In this document: piece by piece, positions 1 through 53,883 of the stretch
How positions within the stretch are numbered: the first letter of the stretch is position 1
How the letters are laid out: each line of letters opens with the position of its first letter
Assembly: GCA_002421665.1 (NCBI GenBank)
Contig: DISH01000004.1
Coordinates: 245,109-309,108 of the forward strand
DNA from: Candidatus Omnitrophica bacterium UBA6215
Lineage (GTDB): Bacteria > Omnitrophota > Gorgyraeia > Pluralincolimonadales > Pluralincolimonadaceae
Direction: 5' to 3'
DNA length: 64,000 bases
The notes under the pieces: generated by a model
What the model was told of the DNA's origin: nothing
Databases searched by the model: none
The model's input: the letters and a program-made list of their open reading frames with translations, nothing else
Position numbers and translations under genes: made by a program

Positions 1-209
1 CGGGCTCCGGTATCTCTTACGCGGGTTACGGGATAGACAGCGTTACCACTTTCCTTGGGGATGTACTGGATATAGAGGAGGGAAAGAGGAGAGTATCGTG
101 GTTTGAAGGCAGGAGGCCTACTTTCAAGGATTCGATAGTTTCGACCAAAGTCCTTGAGGCCGTTAACAGGAGCCTTAAGACGGACGGTAAATGGGTGGAG
201 ATAAAGTAG
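1..209 (+). CDS. 3' end of an upstream gene (partial, unknown function)
   Basis: Frame 3 is open from the window edge to TAG at 207-209 (...VLEAVNRSLKTDGKWVEIK*). Protein-like composition, no recognisable motif. Confidence 0.35.
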   Translation, partial: GSGISYAGYGIDSVTTFLGDVLDIEEGKRRVSWFEGRRPTFKDSIVSTKVLEAVNRSLKTDGKWVEIK

Positions 210-211
210 CG

Positions 212-1267
212 ATGGGCGGCGTAAAGATATCCGGGAAAAAACTGCACTGCTTCATTAACAAGACCCTTATTAAGGCCGGCGCAAGGAAAGACGTGGCCGG
301 CTATGTGTCCGGAGGGTTGATACAGACTTCCCTGCGCGGTGTTGATTCGCACGGTGTGAGGTTACTGCCCCATTACATTGCTTCGATGAAAGCCGGCAGG
401 ATCAACCCCGATCCGAAATACAGGTTCAGGAAGACATCTTTTTCCACGGGGACCCTGGACGGCGACCATACCTTCGGTCATGCCGCAGGAATGGAAGCGG
501 CAAGGAAGGCCGTAGAGTTGGCTCGAAAATCCGGCACCGGCCATGTAGCGGTCTGTAATTCCACGCATTTCGGGGCAGCCGCATATTATTCCCTCGAAAT
601 AGCGAAGCATGACATGATAGGCCTGAGTTTTACCCATGCTGATTCGCTTATGAAGACCTACGCGGGCAAAAGGGCTTTCCTCGGCACGAACCCCATCTCG
701 TTCACCGCGCCGATACAGGGCGAAGGTCCGCTTTGCCTGGATATGGCAACAACCCTGTATAACTTCAACAAGGTTAAGCAGCTTAGGGAACATGGGCTTG
801 ACGCGCCTGAAGGTGTAGGGGCGGATGAGGGCGGTTTTGACACTACGGACCCCCACAAGATCTCAATGCTTTTGCCGATAGGCGGATACAAGGGTTACGG
901 TTTGAGCCTTATGGTCGAGGTCCTGTGCGGTATCCTTACGGGTATGCCTTATGGTCCTCATATATCCAGTATGTTCAAGGCGCCTCTTAGCCAGAAGAGG
1001 TTCTTGGGTCATTTTATATGCGCTATAAAGATCGATTGTTTCCAGGACAAGAAGGTTTTTAAGAAAAGGATGGCCGCCCTGGTAAGGGAGCTGCGCAGGG
1101 AGCCGTCCATAGAAAAAGGCCGTCAAGTCCAGGTTGCCGGGGATCCGGAGAAGAAGACCTTTGCGCGAAGGATGAAAGAGGGTATTCCTTTGAGTGCGGC
1201 TGAATTCGAGGATTTCAACAGGCTATCGGATGAATATGGTGTTAAATTGGAGATCATATCGGATTGA
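212..1267 (+). CDS. Ldh_2 family (malate/L-lactate/sulfolactate-type) 2-hydroxyacid dehydrogenase
   Basis: Family-typical N-terminus ...LRGVDSHGVRLLPHY..., then TGHVAVCNSTHFGAAAYY and GTNPISFTAP. Alternative ATG at 191 overlaps the upstream stop. Confidence 0.8.
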   Translation: MGGVKISGKKLHCFINKTLIKAGARKDVAGYVSGGLIQTSLRGVDSHGVRLLPHYIASMKAGRINPDPKYRFRKTSFSTGTLDGDHTFGHAAGMEAARKAVELARKSGTGHVAVCNSTHFGAAAYYSLEIAKHDMIGLSFTHADSLMKTYAGKRAFLGTNPISFTAPIQGEGPLCLDMATTLYNFNKVKQLREHGLDAPEGVGADEGGFDTTDPHKISMLLPIGGYKGYGLSLMVEVLCGILTGMPYGPHISSMFKAPLSQKRFLGHFICAIKIDCFQDKKVFKKRMAALVRELRREPSIEKGRQVQVAGDPEKKTFARRMKEGIPLSAAEFEDFNRLSDEYGVKLEIISD

Positions 1268-51437: not shown

Positions 51438-52188
51438 CGTAGTCATACTGACTAAGAACGCCCAAGATTGCGTGGAAGCCTGCCTCGAGAGCGTAAAATG
51501 GGCCGACGAGATCGTCGTAATAGACGGATTCTCTACCGATAAGACCTTTGAGATATGCAGGAGGTACACCGACAGGATAATCAGAAGCGAATTCGAGGGT
51601 TTTGCCCTTGAAAGGAACAAAGGGATCGATAACTCTACAGGCGATTGGATACTGCAACTCGACGCCGATGAGGTCGTTACCCCCCGGCTTACCTCGGCGC
51701 TTAAAGAGGCGATGGCTTCCGGTTCAAGCGCCGTCGGGTACAAGTTCAGGAGAAAGAACTATTTCCTGGGCCACCCCATGAAATACGGCGGGTGGTACCA
51801 TTATTCAGCCCATTTTTTTAAGAGAGGCTGCGGCAGGTATGAGGGCCTTATACATGAAAGGCTCAAGCTTACCGGGCCTCAGGGGGTCATCGAAGCGGAG
51901 ATAGAGCACAGGCCGTTCAACTCCATGGAGCAATTCCTGGAAAGGCAGAACAGGTATACGGGTTACGAGGCAAAGGACATTTTTAACGAGAAAGGCGTTC
52001 TGCCGCTGAAAATAGTACTATATAACCTTAAGGTCAAGCCGCTTAAATTGTTCTGGAAGCTCTATATAAAGAAACAGGGTTTCAGAGAAGGCAGGATAGG
52101 CTTCATATTCTGCATAATGTTCGCATATGTGCATTTCATGAAATGGGCAAAATATTGGGAGCTCACCTATGGTGAAAAGGCAGGATAA
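51418..52188 (+). CDS. GT2 LPS-core-type glycosyltransferase (WaaE/KdtX-like), tandem paralog
   Basis: [38 protein letters not shown] ... LQLDADE; clearly paralogous to the preceding gene. Confidence 0.75.
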   Translation: [256 protein letters not shown]

Positions 52189-52762
52189 GGTAATATTCCT
52201 CGACAGGGACGGCGTAATAAATGTCGATCCCGAATTCATAAATGATTACAGGTATGTCACTAAGTGGAATGAGTTCAGGTTCCTGCCGAGGGTAAAACGC
52301 GCCATCCGCCGTCTTTCCGGGAACGGGTATGCAATATATATCATATCGAACCAGGCGGGCATCGGAAAGGGGTATTTTACGTTAAAGGACCTTAAGGACG
52401 TGACGGACAGGATGAAGAGGCAGATCGAAAAGGCGGGAGGCAGGATCGCGGATGCTTTTTACTGTCCGCATCGGCAGGAAGACAACTGCGCCTGCAGGAA
52501 GCCTAAGGCCGGCCTTTTTAAGAAAGCTCTCAAACGCGGTAAGATAGATTTCAGCAAGACATATTTCATAGGGGATAATATACGGGATGTCGAAGCAGGC
52601 CATGCCATAGGTTGCAGGACAATCCTGGTGTTGTCCGGGAAGACCAGGAAGAGTGACATAAGCAAGAGGGCGTGGAATGCAGGATCGAAGCCGGATTTCA
52701 TAAAACAAGACCTGTTCGATGCTGTCGACCTGGTACTCAAGGGAGATAAAAAGAACCGATGA
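52169..52762 (+). CDS. gmhB: D-glycero-D-manno-heptose 1,7-bisphosphate 7-phosphatase (HAD family)
   Basis: FLDRDGVIN (HAD motif I) and Zn motif CPHRQEDNCACRKPK characteristic of GmhB. Confidence 0.8.
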   Translation: MVKRQDKVIFLDRDGVINVDPEFINDYRYVTKWNEFRFLPRVKRAIRRLSGNGYAIYIISNQAGIGKGYFTLKDLKDVTDRMKRQIEKAGGRIADAFYCPHRQEDNCACRKPKAGLFKKALKRGKIDFSKTYFIGDNIRDVEAGHAIGCRTILVLSGKTRKSDISKRAWNAGSKPDFIKQDLFDAVDLVLKGDKKNR

Positions 52763-53883
52763 AAATATTCATTGTTCACGCGCCGGCAGGGGCCGGCCAT
52801 AAGAGCGCGGCATTCGCGATAAAAGATGCTTTTGATAAGGCAAAGACCGGACATGACGTGAGGGTGATAGACTCCCTCGAATATACCAACGGGCTCTTCC
52901 GCTGGATGTATATATGGGGATACAATTTTATGGTATCGAAAGCTTCGTTCCTTTGGAGCTTCTCGTTCTATATTACCGACTTCAAGCCTATAAGACCGCT
53001 TATCAGGTCATTCAGGCGTATGGTGAATTTCGTCAACGGATACGCTTTTTACCGCCTGGTGAGGAAGGAGAGGCCTGATTGTATCGTGACCACGCATTTT
53101 TTTGCTACGGAGATAGTATCGAACCTTAAACTTTCCAAGATGTACGCCGGCGAACTGGTCACCGTCATTACCGATTACGGCGTGCATGATTTCTGGATAT
53201 CTTCCCAGGTTGACATATATGCGGTTGCCTCCGAATATACGAAAAAAGAACTTATCTCAAAAGGGATACCTTCCGAGAAGATAAGGGTGCTTGGCATACC
53301 CGTACAGGAGAAATTCACCCGCAGGTGGGAAAGGACGGAAGCGGCCCGTAACCTGGGCCTTGAGGAAGGTTTGTTCACGGTGTTGATCATAGGCGGAGGT
53401 CTTGGGGTCGGGCCGATAGCACAGATGGTCGAGACCATAGCGCATACACAGGAGCCTTTCCAGCTAATGGTGGTATGCGGCAAGAACGAATCCCTTAAAA
53501 AAGAGATAGAAGAGATAGCCTCTAAAGCCAGGACCCCCATGAAGGTATACGGTTTTGCGGATAATGTCAACGAGCTCATGGATGCTTGTGACGTCATGAT
53601 ATCCAAACCGGGAGGGCTGAGCATATCCGAGGCTATGGTAAAAGGGGTCCCGGTAATAGTGAACACCTTTATCCCCGGCCAGGAAGAGAATAACCTGAAC
53701 TTCCTGGAAAAGAACGGCGTCGGCGTGGGTACGAAGACGATCGCCCAAACCCTGGACAAACTCGAATATCTTTTCAGACATAAGGAACTTCTCGACGGAA
53801 TGAGGGCAAAGGCCAAGCAGCTTGGCAAGCCGTCTTCGGCCAGTGATATTGTCCTGCTGGTATTGGAGACCGTAGAAAAATGA
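52759..53883 (+). CDS. GT28 family glycosyltransferase (MGDG synthase / UgtP-like diacylglycerol glycosyltransferase)
   Basis: N-terminus KIFIVHAPAGAGHKSAAFAI (MGDG_synth-like), C-terminus MISKPGGLSISEAMVKGVPVIV (GT28 C-terminal). Confidence 0.7.
   Translation: MKIFIVHAPAGAGHKSAAFAIKDAFDKAKTGHDVRVIDSLEYTNGLFRWMYIWGYNFMVSKASFLWSFSFYITDFKPIRPLIRSFRRMVNFVNGYAFYRLVRKERPDCIVTTHFFATEIVSNLKLSKMYAGELVTVITDYGVHDFWISSQVDIYAVASEYTKKELISKGIPSEKIRVLGIPVQEKFTRRWERTEAARNLGLEEGLFTVLIIGGGLGVGPIAQMVETIAHTQEPFQLMVVCGKNESLKKEIEEIASKARTPMKVYGFADNVNELMDACDVMISKPGGLSISEAMVKGVPVIVNTFIPGQEENNLNFLEKNGVGVGTKTIAQTLDKLEYLFRHKELLDGMRAKAKQLGKPSSASDIVLLVLETVEK

What the first reader, a model, noticed from the sequence alone, without database searches (positions are those of the whole stretch)
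191..53883. One ~54 kb co-directional, translationally coupled glycan/LPS megacluster with no Wzx/Wzz and a single MsbA/PglK-type ABC exporter
About 48 consecutive + strand genes. At least 20 junctions overlap by 1–20 nt (ATGA, TAATG, GTGA) and several use TTG/GTG starts, which argues for very long polycistronic expression. A plausible lipid-linked pathway is visible: WecA-like initiating transferase (43494), many GTs, a Wzy_C protein (45281), heptosyltransferases/GmhB/WaaE-like core enzymes. No Wzx-type (Polysacc_synt) flippase, no Wzz, and no Wzm/Wzt pair are recognisable; the only exporter candidate is the fused TMD-NBD ABC protein at 12384. This resembles PglK-type flipping more than classical Wzx/Wzy or ABC-2 O-antigen routes. 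That combination, in one operon-like block of this size, is unusual.
Basis: partly seen in the sequence, partly recalled or inferred. Interest (0 to 1): 0.6.

Follow-up and report, generated by a model that had tools for sequence, protein, structure and literature searches.

The report
Omnitrophota surface-glycan superlocus with ABC exporter
This is a large, conserved set of cell-surface sugar (LPS-type) genes from an uncultured Omnitrophota bacterium. It has no classical Wzx flippase in the locus and probably uses a fused ABC exporter instead, a route already known from Helicobacter and Campylobacter.

Summary
No Wzx, Wzz or Wzm/Wzt was found.

Three corrections apply.
- The glycan genes continue at least 8.7 kb upstream of the window.
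- Co-directional tight packing continues through housekeeping genes, with about 75 genes over 82 kb and one on the minus strand. It is therefore regional and not evidence for one operon.
- Composition matches the housekeeping genes, and gene order is conserved at about 60% identity in other Omnitrophota, so this is not a recent acquisition.

The three polytopic Wzx suspects are GT-C glycosyltransferases. One directly follows an ArnC/PgfS-like GT2.

The ABC exporter fails the MsbA, PglK and HepA family cut-offs. In Omnitrophota it always sits in a cassette for CMP-activated nonulosonic-acid-type sugars, usually next to a nonulosonic-acid-transferase-like protein.

The best reading is a Wzk/PglK-style route in which the ABC exporter flips a completed lipid-linked glycan, followed by WaaL ligation and periplasmic GT-C decoration. 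This is plausible but unproven, and it is a new variant of a known kind.

The parts
1..209 (+). 3' end of a GFO_IDH_MocA oxidoreductase gene. The cluster continues upstream of the window.
   Evidence: L086 gene 7777-8946 maps to the window up to 209; Pfam GFO_IDH_MocA.
212..1267 (+). Ldh_2-family 2-hydroxyacid dehydrogenase.
   Evidence: Pfam Ldh_2 at 342 bits. Orthologues are at the same position in L088 and L089.
1264..2934 (+). B12-binding radical SAM enzyme (probable methyltransferase).
   Evidence: Pfam B12-binding + Radical_SAM. NCBIfam gives only sub-threshold hits to B12-rSAM families.
2924..4743 (+). Two SAM-dependent methyltransferase-like genes (2924-3703 is weak; 3706-4743).
   Evidence: Pfam Methyltransf_12 (weak) and Methyltransf_23/11/12/25.
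4740..5471 (+). Cytidylyltransferase for an acidic sugar (PseF/KdsB-like).
   Evidence: Pfam CTP_transf_3. NCBIfam PseF scores 82 bits, below its cut-off.
5473..6819 (+). GT2 glycosyltransferase fused to a CTP_transf_3 cytidylyltransferase.
   Evidence: Pfam. Orthologues at 52-69% identity lie near the ABC gene in L088, L089 and L096.
6821..9441 (+). Three methyltransferase genes (FkbM-type 6821-7819; 7835-8659; 8656-9441).
   Evidence: Pfam Methyltransf_21 and Methyltransf_12/23/25/31.
9441..10496 (+). 351-aa soluble protein with no family assignment.
   Evidence: No significant Pfam or NCBIfam hit.
10493..12400 (+). 635-aa soluble protein, a distant relative of the BFO_1060 family of nonulosonic-acid transferases. 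It overlaps the ABC gene by 17 nt.
   Evidence: The family has 770 representatives at E<=1e-3. 15 of 32 members hit NCBIfam BFO_1060_trans. A family member lies next to the ABC gene in 5 of 6 Omnitrophota contexts.
12384..14213 (+). Fused TMD-NBD type IV (ABCB-like) half-transporter, the only exporter candidate.
   Evidence: Pfam ABC_membrane + ABC_tran. NCBIfam HepA 408/725, MsbA 365/602 and PglK 226/1000 (score/cut-off) are all below cut-off. PDB searches. Contexts.
14206..15135 (+). Radical SAM / SPASM-domain enzyme.
   Evidence: Pfam Radical_SAM + SPASM. A 70% identical orthologue follows the ABC gene in L089.
15135..16742 (+). 535-aa soluble protein, a weak paralogue of 10493 (GT-B-like).
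   Evidence: BLASTP 25% identity over 273 aa, E 5e-4. Weak hits to TIGR04326, BFO_1060 and Glyphos_transf. A 47% identical orthologue is in L089.
16739..19214 (+). Second B12-binding radical SAM enzyme (16739-18292) and a GT2 (18285-19214).
   Evidence: Pfam. Orthologues in L088.
19311..20456 (+). Transglutaminase-core + TPR protein with an N-terminal TM. It is a probable insertion, not obviously part of the pathway.
   Evidence: Pfam. GC 0.46, codon-usage r about 0.6-0.7 with the rest. Flanked by the only gaps >50 nt. Absent at this position in L088 and L089.
20554..20646 (+). 30-aa hydrophobic small ORF whose stop overlaps the start of 20643.
   Evidence: Called as a gene in L002-L005; translation.
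20643..22799 (+). NDP-sugar dehydratase/epimerase (20643-21602), hexapeptide acyltransferase (21595-22116) and GT2 (22113-22799).
   Evidence: Pfam. NCBIfam gives sub-threshold hits to RmlB, UDP-xylose synthase, ArnA, WcaF and NeuD.
22796..24316 (+). GT-C fold membrane glycosyltransferase from an unassigned family. It is not a Wzx.
   Evidence: No Pfam hit for the protein itself, but 5 of 32 homologues hit PMT_2. AF2 pLDDT 88.5. Foldseek top hits are STT3, PglB, AglB, ArnT and PMT. E29 and D36 in the first loop are invariant.
24313..25620 (+). GT-C glycosyltransferase (PMT_2/ArnT-like).
   Evidence: Pfam PMT_2 at 30.8 bits, above its 26.1 cut-off; about 10 TM segments.
25610..28805 (+). DegT-type sugar aminotransferase (25610-26746), FemAB-like Acetyltransf_6 (26747-27844) and polysaccharide deacetylase (27834-28805).
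   Evidence: Pfam, NCBIfam. Same order in L093 at 57-68% identity.
28814..30821 (+). GT2 with one C-terminal TM (28814-29869), and an ArnC/PgfS-like polyprenyl-phosphate glycosyltransferase with two C-terminal TMs (29871-30821).
   Evidence: Pfam. TM scan. NCBIfam PgfS 277.5 bits and ArnC 174 bits, both full-length but below cut-off.
30799..32529 (+). GT-C fold membrane glycosyltransferase from an Omnitrophota-specific unassigned family. It is not a Wzx.
   Evidence: No Pfam or NCBIfam hit. 26 homologues, those with a source name all labelled Omnitrophota/Omnitrophica. AF2 pLDDT 72. Foldseek hits are STT3, ArnT, PglB, DPY19 and AftA.
32531..43491 (+). Cytoplasmic assembly block: GT2, GT4, RmlD-like reductase, GT1, AsnB-type amidotransferase, GT1+DUF218, DUF4330, a 130-aa unknown, GT4 and an NDP-sugar epimerase.
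   Evidence: Pfam. Identical order in L093 at 41-86% identity.
43494..45284 (+). Initiating polyprenyl-phosphate N-acetylhexosamine-1-phosphate transferase (WecA/MraY superfamily), fused to a WbaP-N-terminal-like TM + CoA_binding_3 region.
   Evidence: Pfam Glycos_transf_4 122.9 bits + CoA_binding_3. NCBIfam WecA 107.7 bits against cut-off 326, and the EPS_sugtrans N-half. The fusion is conserved in L007.
45281..46759 (+). Wzy_C protein, most likely a WaaL-type ligase.
   Evidence: Pfam Wzy_C 86.8 bits. About 13 TM. Syntenic with the GT9 genes in L007 and L010.
46756..48815 (+). Two GT9 heptosyltransferase-family genes (LPS inner core).
   Evidence: Pfam Glyco_transf_9. Conserved in L007, L008 and L010.
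48812..53883 (+). Conserved core block: GT1-like, three GT2, a GmhB-like HAD phosphatase and an MGDG_synth/GT28-like glycosyltransferase.
   Evidence: Pfam. Syntenic with UDG-PriA in L006, L007, L008 and L010 at 33-86% identity.

Best explanation
The region is part of a lineage-conserved cell-envelope glycoconjugate (LPS-type) superlocus of an uncultured Candidatus Omnitrophota bacterium. It spans at least 62 kb and about 56 genes, and it is built from modules rather than being one acquired operon.

- Module A runs from upstream of the window to 19214. It makes and tailors CMP-activated nonulosonic-acid-type sugars. It contains a WbuX amidotransferase, NeuB/PseI-like and PseF-like enzymes, three radical SAM enzymes and about six methyltransferases. 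It also holds two soluble transferase-like proteins distantly related to the BFO_1060 nonulosonic-acid transferases, and a fused type IV ABC exporter.
- Module C (20643-32529) is an Arn/Gtr/Pgf-like periplasmic decoration system. It combines sugar amination, acylation and deacetylation enzymes with GT2 genes (one, 29871, a polyprenyl-phosphate sugar synthase type) and three GT-C transferases.
- Module D (32531-43491) supplies cytoplasmic GT1/GT2/GT4 enzymes and sugar-nucleotide enzymes.
- Module E (43494-53883) supplies the WecA-like initiator, a WaaL-type ligase and LPS inner-core enzymes.

Proposed mechanism, all inferred:
1. The WecA-like enzyme primes undecaprenyl phosphate.
2. Cytoplasmic transferases build the whole glycan, including the modified nonulosonic acid.
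3. The ABC exporter flips the finished undecaprenyl-diphosphate glycan, as Wzk does in H. pylori and PglK does in C. jejuni. No Wzx, Wzy or Wzz is then needed.
4. The Wzy_C protein ligates the glycan to lipid A-core.
5. The GT-C enzymes add single sugars from undecaprenyl-phosphate donors on the periplasmic side.

Shown here: gene content, folds, synteny and conservation. Inferred: every substrate and the flipping role of the ABC exporter.
For: Taxon: PriA is 77%, 71% and 67% identical to proteins of two Omnitrophota MAGs and a third MAG labelled 'uncultured Planctomycetia', all sharing the same synteny.

No Wzx, Wzz or ABC-2 family is found in any protein of the window. None of the upstream proteins is polytopic. 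The three polytopic unknowns are GT-C.

In about 72 kb there is one PNPT (43494), one ABC exporter (12384) and one Wzy_C protein (45281). Module A has no initiating transferase of its own in any of six contexts.

The ABC gene is tied to the nonulosonic-acid cassette:
- It overlaps a BFO_1060-like gene by 17 nt.
- A member of that family lies next to the ABC gene in 5 of 6 Omnitrophota contexts, where ABC identity ranges from 38 to 100%.
- No lpx genes are nearby in any context.

29871 is a full-length PgfS/ArnC-like protein with two C-terminal TMs and sits directly upstream of GT-C 30799.

The Wzy_C protein is syntenic with the GT9 heptosyltransferase genes in relatives.

The whole order 25610-42522 is conserved in GCA_964650515.1. 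Codon usage and GC are native.

Precedent for WecA + ABC flippase + WaaL without Wzx: PMC2841628.
Against: - The ABC gene lies 30 kb from the WecA-like and WaaL-like genes, and its conserved partners are the nonulosonic-acid genes, not WecA or WaaL. It may therefore serve only the module A product.
- It is not a PglK/Wzk orthologue by the NCBIfam cut-off. Its membrane domain finds only MsbA (29 bits) and BmrA in the PDB, not PglK.
- Only about 82 kb of a genome of unknown size was seen. A Wzx, a GtrA/ArnEF-type flippase or a second exporter could lie elsewhere.
- A Wzy_C domain does not distinguish a ligase from a polymerase or a protein O-oligosaccharyltransferase.
- No transcript, biochemical or glycan-structure data exist for this lineage in the searched literature.
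Confidence: 0.45

Rival explanations
1. The ABC exporter serves only its own cassette. It would export a nonulosonic-acid-containing glycolipid or capsule-like polymer that is not primed by the WecA-like enzyme and not ligated by the Wzy_C protein. The flippase for the WecA-primed glycan (Wzx or another) would then be encoded elsewhere in the genome.
For: The conserved neighbours of the ABC gene in all six contexts are CTP_transf_3 genes, the GT2-CTP_transf_3 fusion, 10493-family proteins and radical SAM enzymes. WecA and WaaL lie 30 kb away. Only about 82 kb of the genome could be inspected.
Against: No initiating transferase or lipid-anchor enzyme accompanies the cassette in any context examined. 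No outer-membrane export or co-polymerase component (Wza/OPX, Wzc/KpsE-type) is found in the window. The cassette lies in one conserved array with the only initiator and ligase.
Confidence: 0.3
2. The ABC protein is simply this organism's MsbA, the housekeeping lipid A-core flippase, and happens to sit inside the LPS region.
For: The NCBIfam MsbA_lipidA model is the second-best hit at 365 bits. The membrane domain alone matches only MsbA (29 bits) and BmrA in the PDB. In that alignment MsbA R78 aligns with a lysine. An LPS-making diderm needs an MsbA.
Against: The score is well below the equivalog cut-off of 602. MsbA R148 aligns with a leucine, although the alignment is weak. Over the full length, Sav1866 and BmrA score as well as MsbA. 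All homologues from 38 to 92% identity in Omnitrophota sit in nonulosonic-acid/radical-SAM cassettes, never beside lpx, kdt or waaA genes.
Confidence: 0.07
3. The end product is glycoprotein rather than, or as well as, LPS O-antigen. Either the Wzy_C protein acts as a PglL-type O-oligosaccharyltransferase, or one of the GT-C proteins acts as an STT3/PglB-type transferase. The locus would then be a Pgl-like general protein glycosylation system with an ABC flippase.
For: The top structural matches of 22796 and 30811 include STT3, PglB and AglB. The Wzy_C protein hits a putative O-glycosylation ligase model at 52.9 bits. BFO_1060-type transferases act in protein O-glycosylation in Tannerella (PMC5420450). 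PglK-type flipping is native to protein N-glycosylation (PMC2841628).
Against: TM-scores of 0.3-0.47 do not separate the GT-C subfamilies, and ArnT and PMT match about as well. No WWDYG-like motif appears among the invariant columns. Two of the GT-C genes directly follow a GT2 gene, and for 30799 that GT2 (29871) is a polyprenyl-phosphate sugar synthase type. This fits monosaccharide donors, as for ArnT. The Wzy_C gene is syntenic with LPS core heptosyltransferases.
Confidence: 0.15

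Closest known systems
Helicobacter pylori O-antigen pathway (WecA + Wzk ABC flippase + WaaL; Hug et al. 2010, PMC2841628)
   Same: Both have a WecA-type initiator, complete cytoplasmic assembly and a fused TMD-NBD ABC half-transporter as the only flippase candidate. Both have a Wzy_C/WaaL ligase and no Wzx, Wzy or Wzz.
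   Different: The H. pylori genes are scattered, whereas here they lie in one conserved array. The ABC protein is not a Wzk/PglK orthologue by the family cut-off and is tied to a nonulosonic-acid cassette. Its function here is untested.
Campylobacter jejuni pgl N-glycosylation locus (PglC, PglA/J/H/I, PglK, PglB)
   Same: Both are compact co-directional loci that combine an initiating transferase, cytoplasmic glycosyltransferases, an ABC flippase and GT-C enzymes.
   Different: The pgl locus is several-fold smaller (own knowledge). PglB is a true STT3-type transferase with a WWDYG motif, which is not seen here. The initiator here is a PNPT, not a PglC-type PGT. The NCBIfam PglK model scores 226 against a cut-off of 1000.
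Arn (PmrHFIJKLM) lipid A aminoarabinose pathway, and the GtrABC / PgfS-type two-step periplasmic glycosylation systems
   Same: Both combine a DegT aminotransferase, an NDP-sugar dehydratase/decarboxylase-like enzyme, a deacetylase, an ArnC/PgfS-like GT2 with C-terminal TMs, and a GT-C transferase directly downstream.
   Different: There are three GT-C genes, two of them from unassigned families. No ArnE/F- or GtrA-type small flippase is in the locus. All NCBIfam hits are below the equivalog cut-offs. The acceptor is unknown.
Tannerella forsythia nonulosonic-acid transferases (BFO_1060 / Tanf_01245; PMC5420450)
   Same: Both are soluble GT-B/TagB-like proteins encoded beside nonulosonic-acid biosynthesis genes. 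15 of 32 members of the 10493 family hit the BFO_1060 model.
   Different: 10493 itself scores only 14 bits against a cut-off of 200. It is about 635 aa long with a large extra N-terminal region, and it is paired with an ABC exporter.
ABC-transporter-dependent O-antigen and capsule pathways (Wzm/Wzt, KpsMT, TagGH)
   Same: In both, the polymer is completed in the cytoplasm and exported by an ABC transporter without Wzx, Wzy or Wzz.
   Different: Those systems use ABC-2 (type V) permeases with a separate ATPase. Here there is a single fused type IV exporter and no ABC2_membrane protein.
MsbA and HepA-family ABCB exporters
   Same: Same fold and domain order. These are the best NCBIfam matches (HepA 408 bits, MsbA 365 bits).
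   Different: Both scores are far below the cut-offs of 725 and 602. The genomic context is a nonulosonic-acid cassette, not lipid A genes or heterocyst polysaccharide genes.

Membership tests
Wzx/Wzy-dependent O-antigen pathway | MOP-superfamily Wzx flippase (Polysacc_synt family) | tested here: not met
   No Pfam or NCBIfam hit in any protein. The three candidate polytopic proteins have a GT-C fold. This applies to the window plus 8.7 kb upstream only, not to the whole genome.
Wzx/Wzy-dependent O-antigen pathway | Wzz chain-length regulator | tested here: not met
   No Wzz hit in any protein.
Wzx/Wzy-dependent O-antigen pathway | Wzy polymerase distinct from the ligase | tested here: inconclusive
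   Only one Wzy_C protein is present. Its synteny with the GT9 genes favours a ligase, but the domain does not discriminate.
ABC-2 (Wzm/Wzt) O-antigen pathway | ABC2_membrane permease plus a separate Wzt ATPase | tested here: not met
   No ABC2_membrane hit. The only ABC_tran domain is in the fused protein at 12384.
Wzk/PglK-type lipid-linked oligosaccharide flippase | Fused TMD-NBD type IV ABC half-transporter | tested here: met
   Pfam ABC_membrane (residues 33-305) + ABC_tran (375-524). Full-length similarity to Sav1866, BmrA and MsbA.
Wzk/PglK-type lipid-linked oligosaccharide flippase | Orthology to PglK/Wzk | tested here: not met
   NCBIfam LPSTprtrPglK scores 226.5 bits against a cut-off of 1000. 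PglK is absent from the membrane-domain-only PDB hits at E<=0.01.
Wzk/PglK-type lipid-linked oligosaccharide flippase | Co-occurrence with an initiating transferase and a ligase/transferase, in the absence of Wzx | tested here: met
   43494 (Glycos_transf_4), 45281 (Wzy_C) and no Wzx in the locus. The arrangement is conserved in relatives.
Wzk/PglK-type lipid-linked oligosaccharide flippase | ATP-dependent flipping of undecaprenyl-diphosphate glycans; PglK-type external helix and arginine ring | not testable with these tools
   This needs complementation or in vitro flipping assays.
MsbA (lipid A-core flippase) | Score above the NCBIfam equivalog cut-off | tested here: not met
   TIGR02203 scores 364.6 against 602; NF008381 scores 314.7 against 867.
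MsbA (lipid A-core flippase) | Basic ring that binds lipid A (E. coli R78, R148, K299) | tested here: inconclusive
   In a weak 29-bit alignment R78 aligns with K91 and R148 aligns with L. K299 lies outside the aligned region.
GT-C glycosyltransferases (22796, 24313, 30799) | Polytopic GT-C fold with acidic residues in the first extracytoplasmic loop | tested here: met
   Foldseek top hits for 22796 and 30811 are all GT-C. PMT_2 hit for 24313. Invariant E29/D36 in the 22796 family and E35 in the 30811 family.
STT3/PglB oligosaccharyltransferase | WWDYG motif in a C-terminal periplasmic domain | tested here: not met
   No such motif is among the invariant or nearly invariant columns of alignments A1 and A2.
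Polyprenyl-phosphate glycosyltransferase (ArnC/GtrB/PgfS) for 29871 | Full-length match to the family plus C-terminal TM helices | tested here: inconclusive
   PgfS scores 277.5 against 500 and ArnC 174.3 against 529. Both alignments are full-length but below cut-off. Two C-terminal TM segments.
WecA (UDP-GlcNAc:Und-P GlcNAc-1-P transferase) for 43494 | Score above the NCBIfam WecA cut-off | tested here: not met
   TIGR02380 scores 107.7 against 326. The Pfam superfamily domain Glycos_transf_4 is met at 122.9 against 27. The protein is therefore a PNPT-superfamily member of undetermined sugar specificity.
WaaL O-antigen ligase for 45281 | Wzy_C domain in a protein of about 12 TM, encoded with core-oligosaccharide genes | tested here: met
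   Wzy_C scores 86.8 against 31.7. About 13 TM. Adjacent to two GT9 genes in the window and in L007 and L010. Ligase activity is not testable here.
BFO_1060 nonulosonic-acid transferase family for 10493 | Score above the NCBIfam cut-off | tested here: not met
   14.2 bits against 200 for 10493 itself. 15 of 32 family members hit at E<=0.01, best 7.8e-7. It is a distant relative, not a member.

The most novel reading that the evidence does not exclude
Omnitrophota as a lineage may have replaced Wzx-type flipping with a dedicated type IV ABC exporter. That exporter is genetically locked to a radical-SAM-tailored nonulosonic-acid cassette and a new family of large transferases. Together with two GT-C families that have no Pfam or NCBIfam assignment, the conserved superlocus of more than 60 kb would build a heavily modified surface glycoconjugate that defines the envelope of these ultra-small, possibly host-dependent bacteria.
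Probability: 0.2. Interest if true: 0.65.

Novelty: new variant of a known kind. Interest (0 to 1): 0.4.

Why it matters
Omnitrophota are uncultured and mostly ultra-small bacteria, and some are thought to be host-dependent or predatory (PMC10066038). In the literature I could search, their envelope glycans are not described.

This locus gives a concrete and testable gene set for their LPS-type surface structure.
- It extends the Wzx-independent, ABC-flippase route (H. pylori Wzk, C. jejuni PglK) to a distant phylum.
- It points to a recurrent pairing of an ABC exporter with a nonulosonic-acid-transferase-like protein. That protein family has 770 representatives.
- It identifies two GT-C families that have no Pfam or NCBIfam assignment.
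- The radical SAM and methyltransferase load of the cassette suggests unusual nonulosonic-acid chemistry.

It does not reveal a new principle of glycan export.

Tried and rejected
- A hidden Wzx among 22796, 24313 and 30811 is rejected. All three are GT-C by Pfam on homologues or by AF2 plus Foldseek.
- The ABC protein as a PglK, MsbA or HepA family member is rejected on the curated cut-offs.
- Sigma-70 promoter and terminator scans to define operons gave counts at chance level: 21 vs 20.0±3.9, 35 vs 22.8±4.8 and 23 vs 21.0±5.1 promoter-like sites, with terminator-like sites about as expected. Only a few suggestive sites emerged, so the scans are uninformative for operon length.
- A single horizontal acquisition is rejected by codon usage, GC and synteny.
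- I first thought the region upstream of 45281 was variable, because the L007/L008 flanks lacked it. That was an artefact of the 10-kb flank. L007 begins inside a 43494 orthologue, and L093 shows the middle of the locus is conserved.
- Sequence searches of 10493 and 15135 against solved structures found nothing.
- Rfam and tRNA scans of the window were empty.

Full report
**1. What is in the window**

ORF listing and composition show one continuous chain of + strand genes at about 51% GC. GC skew is positive throughout (+0.05 to +0.19).

Identical metagenome contigs carry independent gene calls. Using those calls:
- There are 48 + strand genes between 212 and 53883.
- Of the 47 junctions, 30 overlap (14 by 4 nt, 3 by 1 nt) and 13 have gaps of 0-10 nt.
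- Only two gaps exceed 50 nt: 96 nt before 19311 and 186 nt before 20643.
- Start codons for the 50 + genes up to 56569 are 37 ATG, 8 GTG and 5 TTG.

**2. Boundaries and specificity**

The window starts inside the cluster. The same contig shows at least 8.7 kb more glycan genes upstream:
- a HisH-like amidotransferase;
- a WbuX N-acetyl-sugar amidotransferase (367 bits, above its cut-off);
- a PseF-like cytidylyltransferase;
- a NeuB/PseI-like synthase;
- an APH-type kinase;
- two unknown proteins;
- a GFO_IDH_MocA oxidoreductase.

Downstream, the same orientation and tight spacing continue through UDG, PriA, def, fmt, a CBS protein, two GalT-like genes, GAPDH, PGK, TIM, SecG, an Opp transporter and further genes. 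The only minus-strand gene in about 82 kb is a TPR gene at 56575-57183.

Co-directionality and overlapping junctions are thus a property of this chromosome region. They do not mark one operon.

Consensus promoter and terminator counts are near chance. Promoter-like sites lie directly upstream of 42526 (11 of 12 matches) and 40437 (10 of 12). A perfect 12 of 12 site precedes the minus-strand TPR gene, so sigma-70-type promoters do appear to be used. Operon length cannot be settled without transcript data.

**3. Organism and conservation**

PriA is 77% and 71% identical to proteins of two Candidatus Omnitrophota MAGs. It is 67% identical to one in a MAG labelled 'uncultured Planctomycetia'. Conservation covers the whole locus:
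- The block from the Wzy_C gene through two GT9, a GT1-like gene, three GT2, GmhB and an MGDG_synth-like gene to UDG-PriA-def-fmt is syntenic in these relatives.
- L007 also begins inside an orthologue of the WecA-like fusion.
- In assembly GCA_964650515.1 the order from DegT (25610) to GT4 (42522) is identical at 41-86% protein identity. The ABC cassette lies on the same contig.

GC, GC3, GC skew and codon usage of the glycan modules match the adjacent housekeeping genes, with r of 0.84-0.94. The exception is the transglutaminase/TPR gene at 19311-20456. It is flanked by the only large gaps and is missing at that position in relatives.

The locus is therefore native and conserved in the lineage. 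It is neither a recent single acquisition nor a hypervariable O-antigen island.

**4. The search for Wzx, Wzz and Wzm/Wzt**

Pfam scans of every + strand protein found no Polysacc_synt, MurJ, Wzz or ABC2_membrane hit. Permissive Pfam and NCBIfam scans of the unassigned proteins found none either.

- 24313 hits PMT_2.
- Five of 32 homologues of 22796 hit PMT_2.
- AlphaFold models of 22796 (pLDDT 88.5) and 30811 (pLDDT 72) match only GT-C enzymes in the PDB: STT3, PglB, AglB, ArnT, PMT, DPY19 and AftA.
- They give no MOP-fold hit, even though a paper reporting a WzxE structure appeared in January 2025, before the April 2026 cut-off of the PDB copy searched.

Two of the GT-C genes directly follow a GT2 gene. 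29871 is a full-length match to PgfS and ArnC and has two C-terminal TM helices. This is the classic arrangement of a polyprenyl-phosphate sugar synthase followed by a GT-C transferase.

With the DegT aminotransferase, acyltransferases and deacetylase nearby, this part of the locus resembles the Arn, Gtr and Pgf periplasmic decoration systems.

**5. The ABC exporter**

12384-14213 is a fused TMD-NBD type IV half-transporter.
- It falls below the curated cut-offs for HepA (408 against 725), MsbA (365 against 602) and PglK (226 against 1000).
- Over its full length it resembles Sav1866, BmrA and MsbA equally.
- Its membrane domain alone finds only MsbA, weakly at 29 bits, and BmrA. It does not find PglK.

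Its homologues form a graded Omnitrophota series from 92% to 38% identity. I examined six contexts.
- All six contain CTP_transf_3 cytidylyltransferases and radical SAM enzymes.
- Four contain the GT2-cytidylyltransferase fusion.
- Five have a member of the 10493 family directly beside the ABC gene.
- None contains lipid A genes.

The 10493 family has 770 representative clusters. Fifteen of 32 sampled members hit the NCBIfam model for the BFO_1060 family. Its Tannerella members are the proposed pseudaminic- and legionaminic-acid transferases (PMC5420450). 15135 is a weak paralogue of 10493.

The exporter therefore belongs to a conserved nonulosonic-acid cassette. That argues against it being the housekeeping MsbA.

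**6. Mechanism**

The whole inspected stretch contains one initiating transferase and one Wzy_C protein.
- The initiator is 43494. It belongs to the PNPT superfamily, scores below the WecA cut-off, and is fused to a WbaP-N-terminal-like TM + CoA_binding_3 region.
- The Wzy_C protein is 45281. It is syntenic with the heptosyltransferase genes and is therefore most likely a WaaL-type ligase.

The nonulosonic-acid cassette has no initiator of its own. The most economical model has five steps:
1. Undecaprenyl phosphate is primed by 43494.
2. The full glycan is assembled in the cytoplasm, including the tailored nonulosonic acid.
3. The ABC exporter flips it.
4. 45281 ligates it to lipid A-core.
5. 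The GT-C enzymes decorate it on the periplasmic side.

This is the logic shown experimentally for H. pylori WecA/Wzk/WaaL (PMC2841628) and for the C. jejuni pgl system. I give it a confidence of 0.45.

The main rival (0.3) is that the exporter handles only a separate nonulosonic-acid glycolipid or capsule-like product, and that a Wzx lies elsewhere in the genome. MsbA identity is unlikely (0.07). A protein-glycosylation end-point (0.15) is not excluded and is not mutually exclusive with the main model.

**7. Novelty and verdict**

Four things are new at the level of a variant:
- its occurrence as one conserved array of more than 60 kb in Omnitrophota;
- the fixed pairing of the exporter with a large nonulosonic-acid-transferase-like family;
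- the radical-SAM-rich tailoring of the sugar;
- two GT-C families without Pfam or NCBIfam assignment.

The literature I searched has no description of Omnitrophota LPS or glycan loci of this kind.

I rate interest as moderate (0.4) and the finding as a new variant of a known kind.

Noticed in passing
window 20554-20646 (+): A 30-aa hydrophobic small ORF (MIPFTHVFMGAGIAWLISKARDAKTGKAKA) sits in the only large intergenic gap. Its stop overlaps the ATG of 20643 (ATGA). It is called as a gene on several identical contigs. It could be a small membrane peptide or a leader.
   Followed up: partly
window 19311-20456 (+), with gaps at 19215-19310 and 20457-20642: A transglutaminase-core + TPR gene with low GC (0.46) and deviant codon usage. 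It is flanked by the only gaps >50 nt and is absent at this position in relatives L088 and L089. It is probably an inserted gene that breaks the array.
   Followed up: partly
window 43494-45284 (+); L007 29-817: The WecA/MraY-type initiator is fused to a C-terminal region resembling the N-terminal TM + CoA_binding_3 half of WbaP-type phosphoglycosyltransferases, without their catalytic domain. The fusion is conserved at 66% identity in another Omnitrophota MAG.
   Followed up: partly
window 60088-61119 and 61123-62121 (+): Tandem paralogous GalT/HIT-like (DUF4921) genes, about 50% identical to each other. They are conserved as a pair in L007, L008 and L010, between a CBS-domain gene and GAPDH.
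   Followed up: no
window 57233-57204 (-) and 57247-57275 (+): A perfect 12 of 12 sigma-70 consensus promoter precedes the only minus-strand gene (TPR, 56575-57183). A divergent 9 of 12 site lies before def. This suggests that canonical promoters are used in this organism.
   Followed up: no
L090 9804-11864; L095 3930-5999 and 7818-9752; L096 2777-3670: More distant Omnitrophota versions of the ABC cassette swap NeuB for HpcH_HpaI or DHDPS-type aldolases. One carries an EamA-family membrane protein. This suggests a family of cassettes that make different ulosonic acids.
   Followed up: partly
window 30799-32529 (+) and alignment A1: The Omnitrophota-specific GT-C family has a strikingly conserved extreme C-terminus (consensus HHVGVASTWGYY) and an invariant NILNEYYYGK..FFKSP segment in its soluble C-terminal domain. 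No known family matches either.
   Followed up: no
window 1-64000: There are no tRNA genes and no Rfam family at gathering threshold in 64 kb.
   Followed up: yes
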